DNA of 64,000 nt from an uncultured candidatus Porisulfidus sp. GTDB taxonomy: Bacteria > Pseudomonadota > Gammaproteobacteria > Poriferisulfidales > Poriferisulfidaceae. Under the pieces are notes generated by a model. The model was not told the origin of the DNA. It saw nothing but the letters and a program-made list of their open reading frames with translations, and searched no databases. Below are positions 22,782 to 64,000 of this stretch, one piece after another (the first letter of the stretch is position 1; the number at the start of each line of letters is the position of its first letter). The stretch covers positions 1,120,001 through 1,184,000 of the forward strand of contig OZ220480.1 of the NCBI GenBank assembly GCA_965116025.1, in the 5' to 3' direction. Both the position numbers and the translations under genes were made by a program.

Positions 22782-23144
22782 TTAGACGTCCAGCATCAGC
22801 TTGAGCGGTTTTCGCATCCCCGCGATCTTGCAGGCTTGCTGCCCATAACCGAACGGAAACAGACTGTACAGATACCGGCGGGAAGCTTTGTCTTCCTCTC
22901 CGTTCGCCCGTTCCTTCAGGTGCTTCAGGACGGCGCGGGCCTCCGGCACAACGTGCCGCTCCTCGTAGCGCTCCCGGACGAAGTCGATCACCACCCAGTG
23001 TTCCGGAGTGAGGAGGATTTTTTCCTCGGCCGCGATCTCCAGGGCGAGCTCGCGGCTCCACGCCGCCGGGTCAAGCAGGAAGCCCTCGTTATCCTTTTCC
23101 GGGATTTGAGAGCGAGACGGGTTGTTGGCTTTGGGATCGCTCAT
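22782..23144 (-). CDS. TusE/DsrC-family protein lacking the C-terminal cysteine(s)
   Basis: DNEGFLLDP..WS..LA..IA..E.I.LT.EHW.VI.FVR; LYSLFP; ACKIAGMRKP followed by LKLMLDV. Confidence 0.85.
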   Translation of the reverse strand: MSDPKANNPSRSQIPEKDNEGFLLDPAAWSRELALEIAAEEKILLTPEHWVVIDFVRERYEERHVVPEARAVLKHLKERANGEEDKASRRYLYSLFPFGYGQQACKIAGMRKPLKLMLDV

Positions 23145-58894: not shown

Positions 58895-59788
58895 CTAGGA
58901 AAGGTCTTTGTCGTTCGCCGTCCGCTCGCGCCATCCTAGCAGGTCTCCGGCCGCGCCGGCCACGGCCACGGCCAAGAGCGCTTCCTGCACGCTCAGCAAC
59001 ACGACGTAAAAAGGGATCAGGGCCGCCGGCCGGTAGCGAATCCGGTCGGCCAGCCGGTGCGCGGCGGCGACTCCCGGGAACAGGAACGCCGCGGTCAGGC
59101 ACAGGGACAGGCCCAGCATGAACGGGGTTGGGAACGCCCAGGACATGGCGAGGACCGCCAAAAACATGGCGCTCGCGGCCCGCCCGTGGTGGAGCGCCCG
59201 GAATTCCCGCGCGAAGAACGGGGTCTCCACCAGCGCGCTCTGCCAGCGGCGGGCGAGCAGAAGCAGCAGGCTCGACAGTAGCGCCAGGCTGGCCATCATC
59301 AGCTCGTTCCCGATCTGGATCAGCAACTCCGTGGGCAAGCCTCGGAAGGGCTCGGGGCGCTCCCCGCGAAGCGTCTCCAGGGTTTCTCTCCAGGCCTGAT
59401 CCAGATCCAGCGGCAACAGGTCCATCGCGTGGGCTCCGGCCCAGGCTCCCAGAAAGCCGCCCAAAATCGCCAGGGACAGGGAATCGGTCCAGCGCAGGAA
59501 GGCGGCGAGGAGCGCCGGGGCGCCGAGAAACAGCAACGGAATCAGGGCCGCCATAGGGTCGCCCAGGTAATACTCGCCCAGGGCCGCGTAAGCCATCCCC
59601 GACGCCGCCAGGATCACGGTGGCGTCCCGCGGGGGGCGCGCCAAGACCATGAACGCCGCGGCGACGCCCGCGAGCAGGATGCCGAACAGCATCGCCGGCA
59701 CATGGATGGCCACCACCTGCAGCGCGATCAGGCCCCCGACGATCGGAAATGGAGGCCCGCGCAGGAACCGCCCGAGCGTGGCGAGCAT
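58895..59788 (-). CDS. Membrane protein (DUF2232/YybS-like)
   Basis: Multi-TM protein with LLLARRWQSAL..F..EF; typical position between rpsR and rplI. Confidence 0.75.
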   Translation of the reverse strand: MLATLGRFLRGPPFPIVGGLIALQVVAIHVPAMLFGILLAGVAAAFMVLARPPRDATVILAASGMAYAALGEYYLGDPMAALIPLLFLGAPALLAAFLRWTDSLSLAILGGFLGAWAGAHAMDLLPLDLDQAWRETLETLRGERPEPFRGLPTELLIQIGNELMMASLALLSSLLLLLARRWQSALVETPFFAREFRALHHGRAASAMFLAVLAMSWAFPTPFMLGLSLCLTAAFLFPGVAAAHRLADRIRYRPAALIPFYVVLLSVQEALLAVAVAGAAGDLLGWRERTANDKDLS

Positions 59789-60018
59789 CAGTGGTTGTCG
59801 CAGTACGGCAACAGGCTCAGATAACGGGCGCGTTTGATGGCGGCGGACAGCCGGCGCTGAAACCGCGCCGGAACGCCGCTGACTCGGGCCGGCATGATCT
59901 TCCCGGTCTCGGTGATGTAGTCGCTCAGCAGATCCAGGTCCTTGTAGTCGATCTCCGACGGGTCGCTTCGCGCGAGGCGACGCGCGCTCTCGCGTTTGGG
60001 TTTGTGGTGACTGGGCAT
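59788..60018 (-). CDS. rpsR: 30S ribosomal protein S18
   Basis: [41 protein letters not shown]. Confidence 0.95.
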
Positions 60019-60023
60019 GGTCG

Positions 60024-60602
60024 TTACTCTCGGGTTTCGGAAGGTGGGGGCGCGGGCTTCCCGGCGGCCGGGTCCTCGCTCGCCTTGGTCTCGGGTCCGG
60101 GTTCCGTCGCGCTCTCGTCTGGCGCGGGCTCCTTGGCCGGGGTGGACCGTGGGGACGCTTTCTCCTCGCTCTCTTTCTCGTCGGTGGGCTCTGGCGACGA
60201 CGCTTTCCTCGGAGCTTCGTCCGAGGCGGGCTTTCTCGATTCCTTCGATCCGTCGCGCCACTCTTTATCGGATCCTTCCTCCTCGTCCGACTTGGCGAGC
60301 GGCGAGGGCTCGGTGATGGCGCGGTCCTGGTGGATGATCAGGCTGCGCAGCACGGCGTCGTTGAACCGGAACGCGTGCTGGATCTCCTCCAGCGCCTTCG
60401 AATCGCACTCCACGTTCATCAGGACGTAGTGGGCTTTGTGCAGCTTGTCGATGGAATAGGCCAGCTGACGTCGGCCCCAGTCCTCAAGGCGATGCACCTG
60501 TCCGTCCCTGCTGGTCACCATTTTCATGTACCGCTCGATCATTTGCGGTACTTGGTCGCTTTGGTCCGGATAGACCAGAAACACGATCTCGTAATGTCGC
60601 AT
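60024..60602 (-). CDS. rpsF: 30S ribosomal protein S6 with long acidic/Pro-rich tail
   Basis: [38 protein letters not shown]. Confidence 0.96.
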
Positions 60603-60675
60603 GCGCGCTCTCCCTTCGGGTTGTCAGCCCCCCGCCGGCGCGGTGGGGCAAGGAGTCGTTGTCGGGGCGCGCATT
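60603..60675 (-). promoter_or_regulatory. rpsF leader (S6:S18-type autoregulatory RNA candidate)
   Basis: Minus strand CTCCTT-GCCCC..GGGGC-TGACAACCCG-AAGGGAG: the SD can pair with the upstream CTCCTT and a CCG lies just before it. A TAGAAT -10 sits immediately upstream. Confidence 0.55.
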
Positions 60676-60678
60676 CTA

Positions 60679-61380
60679 TCAGAACCCGCTCTCGCGCCCG
60701 GGCGCCGCCGCGACCGGGGCGACGCTCTTGTGGGGCAGGAACAGCCCGCAACCGAGCAGGCGCCCGGGCCCAAGCCCGTGGCACTGCAGATTCAGGGACG
60801 CTTCCGGCTCGAGCCCGTCCAGCATCAGGCTGCGGCAGCGCGCCGTGGCGTCGCCGCTTCCGCGGACGGGGTGGGTCCGTCCGGCCATCATGCGCGGCGC
60901 TTGGACGCCGATGGCTTCCAGGCGCTCGGCGCACAGATCCAGAAACTCCTCCTCTTCCTCAGTCTCGATCGCCACGTACCGGGCGAACGCCGTGCCCTGC
61001 GGCTGCAGCGCGCGCGGCTTGCCATCCTCGATTCGCATCCGGTCCGGTCCGACCCGCAGGGTGGTTCCGGGCAGGGCTCGCGCCTCCTCCAGCCGGTGGC
61101 GCGGAAGCCGCAGCGCCAGCCGGGCGCGCCGCGACAACGGCAGATAGGCGGCCGGGTCGTCCGGGCGGATCCAGCCGTTTCCGGATTCGGCGCCGTGGAC
61201 GGTGTGGATGCCGGCGAGCGGCTCGTCTTCCAGCCAAGGCCAGACCGAAAGCAACGCCGCGCGGAGATCCTGGGCATGGTCGACCGGCAAGGCCGCGCAA
61301 CGCATCCGATAGCGAACGTCCACCACGTCGGACGCGGCGGCCGGCGGCGGAGCGTCTGGTTCCCGCCAGCGCGCGGTCAT
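60679..61380 (-). CDS. cas6: Orphan Cas6-family RAMP endoribonuclease (Cmx6 / type I-MYXAN-like)
   Basis: LPVDHAQDL, GIHTVHG, LPLSRRARLALRLP and C-terminal G-rich loop LQCHGLGPGRLLGCGLFLPHK. ATGA overlap with the upstream gene. Confidence 0.85.
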   Translation of the reverse strand: MTARWREPDAPPPAAASDVVDVRYRMRCAALPVDHAQDLRAALLSVWPWLEDEPLAGIHTVHGAESGNGWIRPDDPAAYLPLSRRARLALRLPRHRLEEARALPGTTLRVGPDRMRIEDGKPRALQPQGTAFARYVAIETEEEEEFLDLCAERLEAIGVQAPRMMAGRTHPVRGSGDATARCRSLMLDGLEPEASLNLQCHGLGPGRLLGCGLFLPHKSVAPVAAAPGRESGF

Positions 61381-61568
61381 GGGCGGCGGGCCGTGAAGAA
61401 ACTCTCCAGGCGCTCCTCCCAGTCGTCTGGAGTGTCGGGGAACGGAGGGCGGACGTCCAGACTGAGGAAGCGCTCTCCCGCCTCGATGCGGTCCGCGATC
61501 AGCTCCTTCAGGCTCGCGAAGGAATCCAGGTCGGGACGGGCGATCAGGATCTCGCTCAGGGTTAGCAT
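61377..61568 (-). CDS. Small acidic protein (63 aa), unknown function
   Basis: MLTLSEILI..SF..L...GERFLSLDVRPPFPDTPDDWEERLESFF; overlaps both neighbours. Confidence 0.75.
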   Translation of the reverse strand: MLTLSEILIARPDLDSFASLKELIADRIEAGERFLSLDVRPPFPDTPDDWEERLESFFTARRP

Positions 61569-62440
61569 GGGAAGGTGGCGCGGTCCGTGTAGCGGGCTCG
61601 GTACAGCAGGCGGGGGCGGTCCGCGGAATCGGTATAGGCGCTCCGGCAATGCAACGCATTATGCGCGATCAGCCCGCACCCCGCCTCCAGACGGAGCGCG
61701 CGCCGAGCTTGCGGCAGGGTCTCCAGCAGTTCCCGGATTCGGTTTCGGGCGGCCTCGGCCTCGGGACGCCAGCGGACGTGGATGGCGCGCTCGGTGTAGC
61801 GCGCATGCAGGCGTCCATCGTCGAGGGAGAAGACCGGACCACGGAATTCGGCGCGGCGCTCCGCGCCGCTCTCGTCGTGGGCGGGCACCGCGAAGGCCCG
61901 CGGGTGCGCCAGGGCTTGGACCATAGCCGGGTCCTCGTCGCGCAGGGCGATGTACAGAAGGCGCGGATCCAGCAACCGGTTGACGCCGCCGTCCAGCGCC
62001 GGGCGGACGCAGTGCAGGATGAAGCTCCGGATCTTGCGCGAGTCCGGCAGGTAGTAGCCGTCGGTGTGCCACCGCAGACGGTTTCGGGTGTACGGGATGA
62101 ACCGCCCGGCCGCGTCCTCCCGCGCCGTCAGCCGGGCCACCCCGTCCGCCTCGGCGCACTGGTGATGGTCGAGATTCGCGAGCCCTAGTCGCTCGCCCAA
62201 GGCCAGAACGTCTTGTGGAGCGAGGGCGCGGTCCGTGGCGTAGTGGACGATACCGCTTGCGCGCAGACGAGAGATCAGGGCGCGGGCTTCCGCGTCGCTT
62301 AGATGGGCGGGGTCGCGCAGCGGAACGGGCGCGAGGTCCGCCACGCTCTCGTCCAGCGTTCGCTCTCGCCACGCGCGATAAGCGTCCGCGCGATCAAGAT
62401 CCCACCAGTCGGGACGCGCGGGAAAGGAGGGGTCAGGCAA
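61562..62440 (-). CDS. TauD/TfdA-family Fe(II)/2-oxoglutarate dioxygenase
   Basis: WHTDGYY (HxD), FILHCVRPA..GG.N, HNALHCRSAY, LLYRARY. TTG start overlaps the aspC stop. Confidence 0.85.
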   Translation of the reverse strand: MPDPSFPARPDWWDLDRADAYRAWRERTLDESVADLAPVPLRDPAHLSDAEARALISRLRASGIVHYATDRALAPQDVLALGERLGLANLDHHQCAEADGVARLTAREDAAGRFIPYTRNRLRWHTDGYYLPDSRKIRSFILHCVRPALDGGVNRLLDPRLLYIALRDEDPAMVQALAHPRAFAVPAHDESGAERRAEFRGPVFSLDDGRLHARYTERAIHVRWRPEAEAARNRIRELLETLPQARRALRLEAGCGLIAHNALHCRSAYTDSADRPRLLYRARYTDRATFPC

Positions 62441-63614
62441 GAAGGTCGCGCAGGCGCGAGACGCCTTCCTCAAGGGTCGGCATGCCGGTGGCGAACGAGA
62501 CCCGGACGTGGCCGGGCGCGCCGAACGGGAGTCCGGGCACCACGGCGAGACGCGCCCGGTCGAGCAGCAGGGTGGCGAACGCGATGTCCGTGGGGCAGTC
62601 CAGCCGGCGCATGGCCTCGCGGACGTTCGGCAGGCAGTAGAACGCGCCATCGGGCTTGAGGCAGTGGACGCCAGGCAGCTCGTTGAGCGCCGCCACGACG
62701 TAGTCGCGCCGGCGCTCGAAGGCGGTCACCATCTCGGGCACCGAGGACTGGTCTTCCAGCAAGGCGGCGCGGGCGGCGGCCTGGGCGATCGAGCAAGGGT
62801 TGGACGTGCTCTGCGACTGGACCGTGAGCATGGCGTCGATCAGGCTCGCCGGTCCGGCCGCGTAGCCGATCCGCCAGCCGGTCATGGCGTAGGCCTTGGA
62901 GACGCCGTTGACGATCAGGATGCGGTCGGCCAGATCCGGCGCGACCTGCGCCAGATTGTGGAATGGCGCGCCGTCGAACCGGATCAGTTCGTAAATGTCG
63001 TCGGACGCCACGAGCACGCGCGGGTGGGCGCGCAGCGCCTGGGCGATTCCCTCAAGGTCCTCCCGGCGCAGCATGACGCCGCAAGGGTTCGAGGGGCTGT
63101 TGAGAATCAGCAGTTTCGAGCGCGCGGTGACCGCCCGGTCCAGTTGCTCGGCGCTGGGTCGGAAGTTTCGCTCCAGGGTCGTCTCCAGAAACACCGGCTC
63201 GCCGCCCGCCAGCCGCACCATGTCGGGGTACGAGGCCCAGTACGGGGTCGGGATGATCACCTCGTCGCCGGGATCGATCAGCGCCTGCAGGCAGTTGTAC
63301 AGGATCTGCTTCGCGCCCGCGCTGACCAGGATCCGCTGAGGCTCGAAAAGCAATCCGTTGTCGCGCTGGAACTTGTGCGCGATGGCCGCGCGCAAGGCGG
63401 GCGTGCCGCCGACCGCGGTGTAGCGGGTCTGTCCGTCCCGGATCGCCTGGACCGCCGCGGCGCGAACGTTCTCTGGCGTGCCGAAATCCGGTTCCCCGGC
63501 GCTCCAGTCGATGATTTCCTGCCCCGCCTCGCGCAGGCGGCGGGCGGTGGCGGAGACGGCCAGCGTCGCGGAGGGCTCGCAACGTCCGACCCGTTTCGAG
63601 AGGGCGTGTTCCAT
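62433..63614 (-). CDS. aspC: PLP-dependent class I (aspartate-type) aminotransferase
   Basis: AGEPDF, NSPSNPCG, SDDIYE, NGVSKAYAMTGWRIGY. Confidence 0.92.
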   Translation of the reverse strand: MEHALSKRVGRCEPSATLAVSATARRLREAGQEIIDWSAGEPDFGTPENVRAAAVQAIRDGQTRYTAVGGTPALRAAIAHKFQRDNGLLFEPQRILVSAGAKQILYNCLQALIDPGDEVIIPTPYWASYPDMVRLAGGEPVFLETTLERNFRPSAEQLDRAVTARSKLLILNSPSNPCGVMLRREDLEGIAQALRAHPRVLVASDDIYELIRFDGAPFHNLAQVAPDLADRILIVNGVSKAYAMTGWRIGYAAGPASLIDAMLTVQSQSTSNPCSIAQAAARAALLEDQSSVPEMVTAFERRRDYVVAALNELPGVHCLKPDGAFYCLPNVREAMRRLDCPTDIAFATLLLDRARLAVVPGLPFGAPGHVRVSFATGMPTLEEGVSRLRDLLA

Positions 63615-63713
63615 CGCGCGGGGTTTCGGTAGCGCGTTTCCGGTGGCGCGTAGTGTACCGCACCCGCGACTCGGTATACACTTATAAGGTTCCACTCTAC
63701 GGAGGCGATTCGA

Positions 63714-64000
63714 ATGCCATCCGCGTTTGACCTGCAGGCGGATTTCGATCCGGCGGGCGACCAGCCCGACGCCATCGCGGGCCTGGTCGCGGGCCTGGCC
63801 GACGGCCTCGGCCACCAGAGCCTGCTCGGCGTCACCGGCTCCGGCAAGACCTACACCATGGCCTGCGTCGTCGCCCAGGTCCAGCGCCCGACCATCGTGC
63901 TGGTCCACAACAAGACCTTGGCCGCGCAGCTGTATGGAGAGATGAAGGAGTTCTTCCCGAACAACGCGGTGGAGTACTTCGTGTCGTACTACGATTACTA
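63714..64000 (+). CDS. uvrB: Excinuclease ABC subunit B (partial, 5' end)
   Basis: Hand translation: [49 protein letters not shown]. Confidence 0.96.

What the first reader, a model, noticed from the sequence alone, without database searches (positions are those of the whole stretch)
60679..62440. Orphan Cas6 coupled to a TauD-like dioxygenase and a small acidic protein, with no CRISPR
Seen: aspC, the TauD-like dioxygenase, the 63-aa protein and cas6 all have overlapping stop/start codons, so they look like one translationally coupled unit among housekeeping genes (uvrB, rpsF operon). The Cas6 G-loop and N-terminal His residues are intact. No array or other cas gene occurs in the 64 kb. Known: Cas6 RAMP proteins bind and cleave RNA hairpins. 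Inference: a domesticated, non-immune Cas6 acting in RNA processing, regulation or modification together with the dioxygenase. I recall similar trios near sulfur-oxidation genes in Gammaproteobacteria but cannot verify that here.
Basis: partly seen in the sequence, partly recalled or inferred. Interest (0 to 1): 0.82.

Follow-up and report, generated by a model that had tools for sequence, protein, structure and literature searches.

The report
Cas6 relative tied to sulfur oxidation
This gene encodes a Cas6-fold protein that has left CRISPR immunity and travels, together with an oxygen-dependent dioxygenase and a tiny acidic protein, with the reverse sulfite-reductase genes of sulfur-oxidising bacteria, so its database label as a CRISPR protein is misleading.

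Summary
On the minus strand a TauD-like Fe/2OG dioxygenase, a 63-aa acidic protein and a PF09559 Cas6 have overlapping stop and start codons, and I found no array in the window. The genome does hold a complete type I-G CRISPR-Cas locus 835 kb away, but it has its own processing enzyme, Csb2.

The Cas6 gene follows dsrAB, not CRISPR.
- In 41 genomes of the order, 40 have it, 40 have dsrA (one genome lacks both), and 18 have cas1.
- In 401 genomes of the class: 118 have both, 7 Cas6 only, 6 dsrA only, 270 neither. Most exceptions are contig ends.

Outside this genus the usual order is dsrCBA, then divergently TauD-like, small, sometimes a TPR-like gene, Cas6, and a cysteine-less DsrC homologue.

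The protein keeps the Cas6 fold, G-loop and Asp-His motif. It is acidic and keeps only 4 of the 28 basic columns of true I-MYXAN Cas6. On a tree it is separated from them by one long, fully supported branch.

The dioxygenase gene is already known as dsrQ, function unknown. I found no paper noting its Cas6 partner.

Verdict: a non-immune, vertically inherited Cas6 derivative that serves as a Dsr accessory. The mechanism is inferred, and an RNA role is now doubtful.

The parts
60679..61380 (-). Cas6-fold protein (233 aa), dsr-linked clade of PF09559/TIGR02807 (Cas6/Cmx6)
   Evidence: Pfam E 1e-51. TIGR02807 114.1 bits, cut-off 98.85. AlphaFold2 model pLDDT 87.8, pTM 0.83. Best PDB fold matches are the type I-B CAST Cas6 chains 8fcu_B/8fcj_B, E 1e-17, TM 0.73-0.79. 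Single copy in the genome.
61377..61568 (-). 63-aa acidic protein with no known family; the best-conserved member of the trio
   Evidence: No Pfam or NCBIfam match. It is 45-63% identical to the window's copy across the other families of the order, against 35-51% for Cas6 and 27-44% for TauD-like. Invariant S5 E32 D38 P41 D45 T46 P47 W50 E55 F58 in 46 sequences. Median pI 4.6. Not related to DsrC by hhalign, probability 0.1-0.3%.
61562..62440 (-). TauD/TfdA-family Fe(II)/2-oxoglutarate dioxygenase (292 aa). It matches what the literature describes as dsrQ.
   Evidence: PF02668 E 6.5e-19. H125, D127, H264, R277 are invariant in 46 sequences. WHTDGYY and NNVLHxR are at least 90% conserved in 76 sequences. 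AF2 model pLDDT 94; the nearest folds are BBOX1 and TmpA. The name dsrQ comes from Lenk et al. 2012 as reported in PMC7596348.
62433..63626 (-). aspC-like class I/II aminotransferase. A flanking gene, not part of the conserved unit.
   Evidence: PF00155 E 4.6e-78. NF004769 aspartate transaminase E 5.6e-136, below that model's cut-off. It neighbours the trio only within the genus.
60603..60678 (-). 76-nt spacer between cas6 and rpsF that folds into a stable stem. Probably the rpsF leader and not part of the module.
   Evidence: MFE -38.2 kcal/mol, z -2.74. No Rfam match at E <= 1. The core sequence recurs upstream of rpsF in two genus relatives (L031 and L034).
60024..60602 (-). rpsF (ribosomal protein S6) with a long acidic C-terminal tail. 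A flanking gene.
   Evidence: ORF list. tblastn finds it conserved next to the trio only within the genus.

Best explanation
The gene encodes a Cas6-derived protein that no longer belongs to CRISPR immunity. It is a vertically inherited accessory of the reverse dissimilatory sulfite reductase (rDsr) pathway of sulfur oxidisers. It is co-translated with a catalytically intact Fe(II)/2-oxoglutarate dioxygenase (the gene called dsrQ in the literature) and a 63-aa acidic protein. In most lineages this operon also carries a TPR-like acidic protein ('X') and a cysteine-less DsrC/TusE/RspA-family protein ending in ...RKGGY, and it diverges from the dsrA promoter. In this genus (Candidatus Porisulfidus by record titles) the five genes are scattered, but all are retained.

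Shown: family and fold, phyletic coupling to dsrA, independence from cas1, synteny, separation from true I-MYXAN Cas6 on a tree, and loss of most of the basic surface.

Inferred (about 0.5): the protein now serves as a partner-binding or ligand-binding subunit of a DsrQ-centred, oxygen-dependent complex. Its clade-specific invariant arginines would bind the acidic partners or an anionic ligand, and the complex would tune or service rDsrAB/DsrC under oxic conditions, possibly through the DsrC look-alike.

Second choice (about 0.3): it still binds, and perhaps cuts, one specific host RNA such as a dsr transcript.
For: Family and fold.
- PF09559 and TIGR02807 score above their cut-offs. All 46 aligned clade members match PF09559.
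- The top PDB fold matches are Cas6 structures.

Phyletic pattern.
- Order sample of 41 genomes: Cas6 homologue in 40 and dsrA in 40. The one genome lacking both is the same, G036.
- cas1 is in 18 of 41, and in 0 of the 12 genomes of a family with 0.9-1.2 Mb genomes.
- Class sample of 401 genomes: PF09559 in 125 and dsrA at E <= 1e-90 in 124. That gives 118 both, 7 Cas6 only, 6 dsrA only, 270 neither.
- Of the 7 Cas6-only genomes, 1 is a true I-MYXAN locus. Five are dsr-type genes at contig ends, two of them with a dsrA fragment at the edge. One, the unpublished G346, was not examined.

Synteny in 80 named loci.
- TauD-like 74/80, small protein 74/80, X 17/80, Cys-less DsrC-like downstream 61/80.
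- dsrA divergently upstream in 65/80, or 53 of the 60 loci with at least 4 kb of upstream sequence.
- Any cas gene: 0/80.
- dsrABEFHCM identities were confirmed by NCBIfam on L016.

Separation from CRISPR-type.
- In a quick IQ-TREE tree, 52 dsr-linked and 40 CRISPR-type sequences are split by one branch with SH-aLRT 100 and length 1.69.
- G020 carries both kinds. Its second copy sits in a full cas6-cas3-cas8a1-cas7-cas5-cas4/cas1 operon and scores 173.7 bits on TIGR02807, against 114.1 for the window protein.

Change of surface.
- Median pI is 5.9 and net charge -5.5 in 46 dsr-type sequences, against 10.4 and +11.5 in 120 CRISPR-type sequences.
- Of 28 columns that are at least 70% K/R in CRISPR-type, 4 stay basic. 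Eleven new basic columns appear: R72, R84, R85, R96, R163, R183, K218 and others.

Dioxygenase and partners.
- The dioxygenase active site is intact.
- The partners are acidic: small protein pI 4.6, X pI 4.4, DsrC-like pI 5.2.
- The own genome keeps X at C1:1991795-1992490 and the RKGGY DsrC-like at C1:269843-270178.

Literature (passage read). PMC7596348 reports that Lenk et al. [quoted passage not shown]
Against: No experiment and no expression data bear on the function.

The Asp-His motif (D34, H35), the glycines of the G-loop and C211 are at least 90% identical in both clades. This would be expected if RNA binding or cleavage at the ancestral site were still selected, so it argues against a purely protein-binding role.

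The most conserved clade-specific motif, GAESGNGWxRP, is a low-confidence loop in the model (pLDDT 61), so its role is unknown.

The nearest structural relatives of the dioxygenase act on small molecules and free amino acids: BBOX1, TmpA, AsnO, CsiD, VioC. A purely metabolic role is therefore as compatible as a protein-modifying one.

The link to oxygen rests on the enzyme class and on a statement about Lenk et al. 2012 that I read second-hand.

G279 has 6.5 kb upstream of dsrA without the trio and no PF09559 hit, so rDsr can exist without the module. G279 is 92% complete.

The genomes in the samples are related, so the contingency table overstates independence.
Confidence: 0.55

Rival explanations
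1. It is still an RNA endonuclease or RNA-binding protein, domesticated to act on a host transcript. For example it could process or stabilise part of the long dsr mRNA, or present an RNA to the dioxygenase.
For: The Cas6 fold and G-loop glycines are kept, and D34-H35 are at least 90% identical with CRISPR-type members. Several arginines are invariant. The operon shares a regulatory region with dsrA in most lineages.
Against: Only 4 of the 28 basic columns of the CRISPR-type remain, and the protein is acidic. The R-R-R of the G-loop is reduced to one Arg. By eye I saw no conserved hairpin in the 120 nt downstream of cas6 in 52 loci. The conserved elements found upstream of dsrA look like DNA promoter and operator sites. 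No candidate RNA target was identified.
Confidence: 0.3
2. It is an ordinary crRNA-processing Cas6 acting in trans on the genome's distant CRISPR array, that is, a displaced cas gene.
For: The genome has a roughly 40-repeat array with a strong hairpin repeat and no stand-alone cas6 beside it. NCBIfam's equivalog model for I-MYXAN Cas6 is passed.
Against: The array belongs to a type I-G system with Csb2 present, and Csb2 alone cleaves I-G repeats in vitro (PMC9638904). Of 40 genomes in the order with the gene, 22 show no cas1, including all 12 of the roughly 1 Mb family. None of 80 loci has a cas gene within 8 kb. The clade is separated from CRISPR-linked Cas6/Cmx6 on the tree and in charge.
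Confidence: 0.03
3. The module is purely metabolic. DsrQ releases sulfite from, or hydroxylates, a small organic compound such as a sulfonate or a betaine-like compound that feeds or protects the Dsr pathway. The Cas6-fold protein would be a structural or substrate-delivery subunit with no regulatory role.
For: The facial triad and 2OG-binding Arg are intact. The nearest folds are small-molecule hydroxylases, BBOX1 and TmpA, E about 4e-14, TM 0.66-0.67. Sulfite release from sulfonates is the published speculation (PMC7596348).
Against: TauD itself is not among the 50 best fold matches, which are led by trimethylammonium and amino-acid hydroxylases. This reading does not explain the strict pairing with a Cas6 fold, a 63-aa protein and a cysteine-less DsrC look-alike, nor why the small protein is the most conserved part.
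Confidence: 0.12

Closest known systems
Type I-MYXAN CRISPR-associated Cas6/Cmx6 (TIGR02807, Pfam PF09559)
   Same: Same Pfam family and same NCBIfam equivalog model, passed at 114.1 bits against a cut-off of 98.85. Same length. D34-H35, the G-loop glycines and C211 are shared at 90% or more.
   Different: There is no cas operon or array beside it. Its presence follows dsrAB rather than cas1. It is acidic rather than strongly basic, with 24 of 28 basic columns lost. It lies across a long, fully supported branch from the CRISPR-linked members. A bona fide example in a relative (G020, L022) scores 173.7 bits and sits in a full I-MYXAN operon.
Cas6 of the type I-B CRISPR-associated transposon Cascade (PDB 8fcj/8fcu chain B)
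   Same: It is the closest solved structure, by sequence (E 1.4e-8) and by fold (E 1e-17, TM 0.73-0.79, 22% identity).
   Different: That protein is a crRNA-bound Cascade subunit. Here no Cascade genes, crRNA or transposon context are present.
dsrQ, the tauD-like gene divergently upstream of dsr clusters (Lenk et al. 2012, as reported in Loeffler et al. 2020, PMC7596348)
   Same: The window's TauD-like gene matches that description. In relatives its homologue lies divergently upstream of dsrA. This makes the Cas6 gene part of the dsrQ operon.
   Different: In this genus the operon has moved about 75 kb from dsrAB, to between aspC and rpsF. The passages I could read mention neither the 63-aa gene nor a Cas6 relative: 'CRISPR' and 'Cas6' occur 0 times in PMC7596348. 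Lenk et al. 2012 was not available, so I cannot say whether its 'dsrU' (named in PMC6018796) is this gene.
Csb2, the Cas5-Cas6 fusion of type I-G systems
   Same: It is present in the same genome. Its Cas6 domain is the processing nuclease of the genome's only CRISPR system (PMC9638904).
   Different: It belongs to a different family (TIGR02165), is encoded beside the array, and makes the window's Cas6 unnecessary for immunity.
DsrC/TusE/RspA family (Pfam PF04358)
   Same: The gene that follows the Cas6 gene in 61 of 80 loci belongs to this family. hhalign against operon DsrC gives E 3e-38.
   Different: It lacks both C-terminal cysteines and ends in a conserved ...RKGGY, so it cannot carry sulfur the way DsrC does. 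Calling it RspA-type rests on my recollection of that subgroup's definition. The paper I read gives only the family name (PMC8477390).

Membership tests
Cas6 superfamily (PF09559 / TIGR02807 Cas6/Cmx6) | Sequence match above the curated family cut-offs | tested here: met
   PF09559 176.1 bits (cut-off 26.7), model positions 1-191 of 191. TIGR02807 114.1 bits (cut-off 98.85).
Cas6 superfamily (PF09559 / TIGR02807 Cas6/Cmx6) | Cas6 fold with a C-terminal glycine-rich loop | tested here: met
   AF2 model pLDDT 87.8. The top 45 PDB matches at E <= 0.001 are dominated by Cas6, Cse3 and other RAMP chains. G202, G204, G210, G212 are invariant.
Cas6 superfamily (PF09559 / TIGR02807 Cas6/Cmx6) | Catalytic histidine in the N-terminal domain | tested here: inconclusive
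   D34-H35 is at least 90% conserved in both the dsr-linked and the CRISPR-type clades. That this His is the catalytic one in Cmx6-type enzymes was not established by any search.
Cas6 superfamily (PF09559 / TIGR02807 Cas6/Cmx6) | Basic RNA-binding surface | tested here: not met
   Median pI 5.9 against 10.4. Only 4 of the 28 CRISPR-type basic columns are retained.
Cas6 superfamily (PF09559 / TIGR02807 Cas6/Cmx6) | Sequence-specific cleavage of repeat RNA | not testable with these tools
   This needs a biochemical assay.
Type I-MYXAN CRISPR-Cas system | Encoded in or beside a cas operon (cas3, cas8a1/cmx1, cas7/devR, cas5/devS, cas4-cas1, cas2) with a CRISPR array | tested here: not met
   There is no array in the window. 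The genome's only cas1 is at C1:340680 in a type I-G locus. None of 80 related loci has cas genes within 8 kb. For contrast, see L022.
Type I-MYXAN CRISPR-Cas system | Presence correlated with CRISPR adaptation genes across genomes | tested here: not met
   In the order sample the gene is in 40/41 genomes and cas1 in 18/41. In one family it is 12/12 against 0/12.
dsrQ operon / Dsr accessory genes of sulfur oxidisers | Co-occurrence with oxidative-type dsrAB in genomes | tested here: met
   118 both, 7 Cas6 only, 6 dsrA only, 270 neither, out of 401 genomes. In the order sample the same single genome lacks both. Whether the DsrAB are of the oxidative type was inferred from dsrEFH in the cluster, not from a DsrAB tree.
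dsrQ operon / Dsr accessory genes of sulfur oxidisers | Position divergently upstream of dsrA | tested here: not met
   This is not met in the window itself: dsrAB lie at C1:1103714-1105980, about 75 kb away. It is met in relatives: 65 of 80 loci, and 11-12 of the 14 loci from the other three families of the order carry dsr genes beside the trio.
TauD/TfdA Fe(II)/2-oxoglutarate dioxygenases (neighbouring gene) | HxD...H facial triad and a 2OG-binding Arg | tested here: met
   H125, D127, H264, R277 are invariant in 46 sequences. PF02668 E 6.5e-19. AF2 model pLDDT 94 with BBOX1 and TmpA as the best folds.

The most novel reading that the evidence does not exclude
A Cas6 nuclease was exapted, once and long ago, into a core energy-metabolism module. 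Together with the dioxygenase DsrQ, a 63-aa protein, a TPR-like protein and a cysteine-less DsrC mimic, it would form an oxygen-dependent switch for reverse-Dsr sulfur oxidation. The oxygenase would hydroxylate either the ...RKGGY arm of the DsrC mimic or an RNA or ligand held by the Cas6 fold. This would gate DsrAB activity or dsr expression according to oxygen and 2-oxoglutarate supply.
Probability: 0.2. Interest if true: 0.88.

Novelty: new variant of a known kind. Interest (0 to 1): 0.68.

Why it matters
For CRISPR biology, this would be a clear case of a Cas protein recruited permanently into housekeeping metabolism. It is single copy, retained even in genomes of about 1 Mb that show no cas1, and found in roughly a third of a broad sample of the class.

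For sulfur microbiology, it adds three or four uncharacterised, tightly conserved genes to the dsrQ locus: the Cas6 relative, the 63-aa protein, the TPR-like X and the cysteine-less DsrC homologue. It also gives concrete handles for an unexplained, probably oxygen-linked, layer of the rDsr pathway.

For annotation, source records label these proteins 'type I-MYXAN CRISPR-associated protein Cas6/Cmx6' (names seen). In sulfur oxidisers that label creates false 'orphan cas6' calls and inflates CRISPR counts. In the class sample nearly all PF09559 hits examined were of the dsr type.

Tried and rejected
- Complex prediction of TauD-like + 63-aa protein + Cas6, with Cas6 as the scored partner, gave 'no answer' (ipSAE 0.00 and 0.01). 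It says nothing either way.
- Public sequencing runs: three holders from one study, none on record as RNA.
- Rfam on window 59500-64000 at E <= 1 gave no match.
- Hairpin target search. I folded the 120 nt downstream of cas6 in 52 loci and saw no shared hairpin by eye. This was not a formal motif search.
- Conserved elements upstream of dsrA. A k-mer search of 74 dsrA/tauD intergenic regions found an inverted repeat (TATCNC-N4-5-GNGATA), a CACCCCWWGG box and a TAGACT -10-like box. They look like DNA promoter and operator sites. They are absent upstream of dsrA in the window's own genome, so they do not explain the Cas6.
- Is the 63-aa protein a DsrC fragment? The atlas's automatic cluster names say 'Sulfur relay protein DsrC', but hhalign against DsrC and the DsrC-like protein gives probability 0.1-0.3%. 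Rejected.
- The TPR-like X has no Pfam or NCBIfam family. The atlas gives only weak TPR leads at 0.83-0.84.
- Lenk et al. 2012 could not be read by DOI or PMC id.
- Literature searches that found nothing on a Cas6-dsr link: 'Cas6'+'TauD'; 'Cmx6'; 'Cas6'+'dsrA'+'sulfur' (with three of its papers checked); orphan/solo/stand-alone/Cas6-like terms; 'CRISPR-associated'/'dsrEFH'/'upstream of dsrA'.
- The careful tree search did not finish in 300 s. The tree cited is the quick one.
Full report
**What is in the window**

On the minus strand the order is: aspC-like aminotransferase (62433-63626), a TauD-like gene (61562-62440), a 63-codon gene (61377-61568), a Cas6 gene (60679-61380), a 76-nt spacer, and rpsF (60024-60602).

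- TTGCCTGA between aspC and the TauD-like gene. This assumes the TTG start, which is the only in-frame start nearby.
- ATGCTAA between the TauD-like gene and the 63-aa gene.
- ATGA between the 63-aa gene and cas6.

Family matches:
- Cas6: PF09559 E 1e-51 over the whole model, and TIGR02807 (I-MYXAN Cas6/Cmx6) 114.1 bits against a cut-off of 98.85.
- Dioxygenase: PF02668 E 6.5e-19.
- 63-aa protein: no Pfam or NCBIfam match.

**CRISPR in this genome**

The window is C1:1120001-1184000 of a complete 2.02 Mb genome. A scan for words recurring at CRISPR-like spacing found no array in the window. It found one real array of about 40 repeats of 37 nt at C1:342270-345140.

That array is flanked by Cas4g/Cas1g and Cas2 on one side. 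On the other side are Cas7g (Csb1), Csb2, Cas3g and the I-G Cas3-extension protein. This is a complete type I-G system.

Formally that exists, but I-G systems do not use a stand-alone Cas6. In the Thioalkalivibrio sulfidiphilus I-G system, Csb2 alone cleaved the repeat through its C-terminal Cas6-like domain (PMC9638904, passages read). PF09559 occurs once in the genome.

**What the gene travels with**

In the 41 nearest genomes, including this one:
- 40 have a homologue of the Cas6.
- 40 have dsrA, and the same single genome, G036, lacks both.
- Only 18 have cas1, and none of the 12 genomes of a family with 0.9-1.2 Mb genomes.
- So 22 of the 40 carriers show no cas1.

In an evenly drawn sample of 401 genomes of the class, PF09559 is in 125 and dsrA (E <= 1e-90) in 124. 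That gives 118 with both, 7 with Cas6 only, 6 with dsrA only and 270 with neither. The genomes are related to one another, so the table shows a pattern, not a probability.

I examined the exceptions.
- Cas6-only (7 genomes):
  - G061 is a genuine I-MYXAN locus with cas3, cas7 and cas1.
  - G171, G206 and G296 have dsr-type genes at contig ends.
  - G177 and G332 have dsr-type genes with a dsrA fragment at the contig edge.
  - G346 was not examined.
- dsrA-only (4 of 6 examined):
  - G413 has a TauD-like fragment at the contig end.
  - G331 and G192 have dsrA at a contig end.
  - G279 has 6.5 kb upstream of dsrA without the trio.
  - G133 and G149 were not examined; both are about 80% complete.

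**Gene order elsewhere**

In the order sample I looked at 19 dsr-type loci.
- All three genes are adjacent and co-oriented in 16 of 19.
- One lineage lacks the small gene, one has the TauD-like gene 4 kb away, and one shows no TauD-like gene in the locus.
- aspC and rpsF flank the trio in 5 of 5 loci of this genus and in 0 of the 14 others.

In those others the trio lies divergently upstream of dsrA-dsrB-dsrE-dsrF-dsrH-dsrC-dsrM. These identities were confirmed by NCBIfam on L016.

A scan of named public genomes returned 80 loci. The scan used two peptide patterns typical of this clade, so the loci are dsr-type by selection. Record titles give this genus as Candidatus Porisulfidus. They also include Thioalkalivibrio denitrificans, Thiothrix eikelboomii, Thiogranum, Thiohalobacter, Sulfuricaulis, Candidatus Parabeggiatoa and others.

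In these 80 loci:
- TauD-like gene upstream on the same strand: 74.
- Small gene: 74.
- An extra gene 'X' of 227-272 aa between the small gene and cas6: 17.
- A DsrC-family gene just downstream: 61.
- dsrA divergently upstream: 65, or 53 of the 60 loci with at least 4 kb of upstream sequence.
- Any cas gene: 0.

The two extra genes:
- X has no Pfam or NCBIfam family and is very acidic.
- The downstream DsrC-family protein (PF04358) lacks both C-terminal cysteines and ends in a conserved ...RKGGY.

The window's genome keeps both, but elsewhere: X at C1:1991795-1992490 beside dinB, and the RKGGY protein at C1:269843-270178. Its dsrAB are at C1:1103714-1105980, about 75 kb from the trio.

**How it differs from a working CRISPR Cas6**

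The AlphaFold2 model is confident (pLDDT 87.8, pTM 0.83). Its best PDB matches are Cas6 proteins, led by the type I-B transposon-associated Cascade Cas6 (E 1e-17, TM 0.73-0.79). That protein is also the only PDB sequence match (E 1.4e-8).

One relative, G020, carries both kinds of gene. Its second copy lies in a full cas6-cas3-cas8a1-cas7-cas5-cas4/cas1 operon and scores 173.7 bits on TIGR02807.

Using that copy as a query gave 120 listed CRISPR-type family members.

In a quick maximum-likelihood tree of 92 sequences, the 52 dsr-linked and 40 CRISPR-type sequences are separated by a single branch (SH-aLRT 100, length 1.69). The tree is unrooted, so I cannot say which clade is derived.

The two groups differ sharply in charge:

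| Group | n | Median pI | Median net charge | pI > 8 |
|---|---|---|---|---|
| dsr-linked | 46 | 5.9 | -5.5 | 4 of 46 |
| CRISPR-type | 120 | 10.4 | +11.5 | 120 of 120 |

A joint alignment shows the same thing:
- Of 28 columns that are at least 70% Lys/Arg in the CRISPR-type group, 4 remain so in the dsr-linked group.
- The Arg-Arg-Arg of the G-loop is reduced to one Arg.
- 11 other columns are basic only in the dsr-linked group, including R72, R84, R85, R96, R163, R183 and K218.
- Shared at 90% or more in both groups are D21, P32, D34, H35, the G-loop glycines and C211.

The most conserved clade-specific motif, GAESGNGWxRP, is a low-confidence loop in the model.

**The partners**

The dioxygenase keeps H125, D127, H264 and R277 invariant in 46 sequences, so it looks catalytically competent. 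Its model (pLDDT 94) is closest to gamma-butyrobetaine hydroxylase and TmpA. Next come amino-acid and glutarate hydroxylases. TauD itself is not among the 50 best matches. The best NCBIfam and PDB sequence hits agree.

The 63-aa protein is the best-conserved of the three. In the approximately 1 Mb lineage it is 53-55% identical to the window's copy, against 34-36% for Cas6 and 27-29% for the dioxygenase. It has ten invariant residues in 46 sequences.

**What is in print**

Loeffler et al. 2020 (PMC7596348, passage read) state that Lenk et al. 2012 named a tauD-like gene transcribed divergently from dsr clusters dsrQ. [quoted passage not shown] That paper contains neither 'CRISPR' nor 'Cas6'.

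Hausmann et al. 2018 (PMC6018796, passage read) list 'DsrQ/DsrU (unknown functions)'.

Lenk et al. 2012 is not held, so I cannot say whether dsrU is one of the genes described here. Five further searches found no paper linking a Cas6 relative to dsr genes.

**Interpretation**

Shown:
- The gene belongs to the Cas6 family and fold.
- It is not part of a CRISPR system.
- It is inherited with, and usually encoded beside, the rDsr genes.
- It forms a conserved unit with DsrQ and the 63-aa protein.

Inferred: the mechanism. Three observations make me favour a partner-binding or ligand-binding subunit of an oxygen-dependent DsrQ complex that services or tunes rDsr (about 0.5). These are the loss of most of the basic surface, the gain of a new set of invariant arginines, and the uniformly acidic partners. 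The cysteine-less DsrC look-alike is an obvious candidate target or effector.

Retention of the Asp-His motif and the G-loop keeps a specific RNA role alive (about 0.3). A purely metabolic role gets about 0.12, and crRNA processing about 0.03.

**Verdict**

The sulfur-oxidation link it recalled is real and much stronger than it supposed. The RNA-processing inference is weakened.

The dioxygenase gene was already named. The Cas6 identity of its operon partner, that partner's divergence from CRISPR Cas6, and the near one-to-one phyletic coupling to dsrAB appear not to be in the literature I could search.

Noticed in passing
own genome C1:339954-351917 (outside the window; loci L002 15954-19000 and L003 1-8917): A complete type I-G CRISPR-Cas locus: Cas4g/Cas1g, Cas2, an array of about 40 repeats of 37 nt with a 9-bp palindromic stem, Cas7g, Csb2, Cas3g and the Cas3-extension protein.
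   Followed up: yes
L002 10310-15664 (-), own genome about C1:334310-339664: A 1784-aa helicase-like protein beside the CRISPR locus. It matches the anti-phage protein ProA (NF058533, 1950.8 bits, above its cut-off) and more weakly Hhe. This looks like a small defence island.
   Followed up: no
dsrA/tauD intergenic regions of related loci, e.g. L105, L110, L111, L113, L127, L143 (about 160-230 nt upstream of dsrA): A promoter-like architecture is shared across distant sulfur oxidisers. It has an inverted repeat TATCNC-N4-5-GNGATA, then a CACCCCWWGGRKRGG box, then about 17 nt after a -35-like TTCTC a TAGACT -10-like box. At least one of the two searched motifs (the CACCCC box or the TAGACT box) occurs in 40 of 74 regions. 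It is absent upstream of dsrA in the window's own genome. It may be an operator for an unknown dsr regulator.
   Followed up: partly
window 60603-60678 (-): The spacer between cas6 and rpsF folds into a stable stem enclosing a GC-rich hairpin (-38.2 kcal/mol, z -2.74). Its core recurs upstream of rpsF in two genus relatives. There is no Rfam match. From memory, S6:S18 autoregulatory leaders sit at this position; I did not verify that here.
   Followed up: partly
window 60024-60602 (-): rpsF encodes 192 aa with a long, low-complexity tail rich in Glu, Asp, Ser and Pro, well beyond the conserved S6 core. Relatives align over only about the first 108-127 residues in several genomes.
   Followed up: no
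window 22815-23099 (-) (own genome C1:1142815-1143099): A third DsrC/TusE-family gene with a single C-terminal-region cysteine (TusE-like). The genome also has the operon DsrC at C1:1102151-1102465 and the cysteine-less RKGGY form at C1:269843-270178.
   Followed up: partly
window 58895-59788 (-): A 297-aa ORF with a hydrophobic, membrane-protein-like sequence lies between rpsR and rplI, inside the ribosomal-protein gene row. The same rpsR-to-rplI gap of about 1 kb is seen in genus relatives.
   Followed up: no
own genome C1:400-710, C1:805050-805400, C1:1324750-1325300: These are coding tandem repeats, not CRISPR arrays, picked up by the repeat scan. They are a lysine-rich KKxxAKKK-type repeat at the start of the contig, GGxGxD-type (RTX-like) nonapeptide repeats, and roughly 100-nt repeats that resemble Sel1/TPR-like units. 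I judged the types by eye from the DNA, not with a family search.
   Followed up: no
L019 / L103 (a 0.9 Mb, 40% GC genome of a separate family): This lineage has the TauD-like gene and the Cas6 gene only about 90 nt apart, and no 63-aa gene was detected. The small protein is therefore dispensable or replaced there.
   Followed up: no
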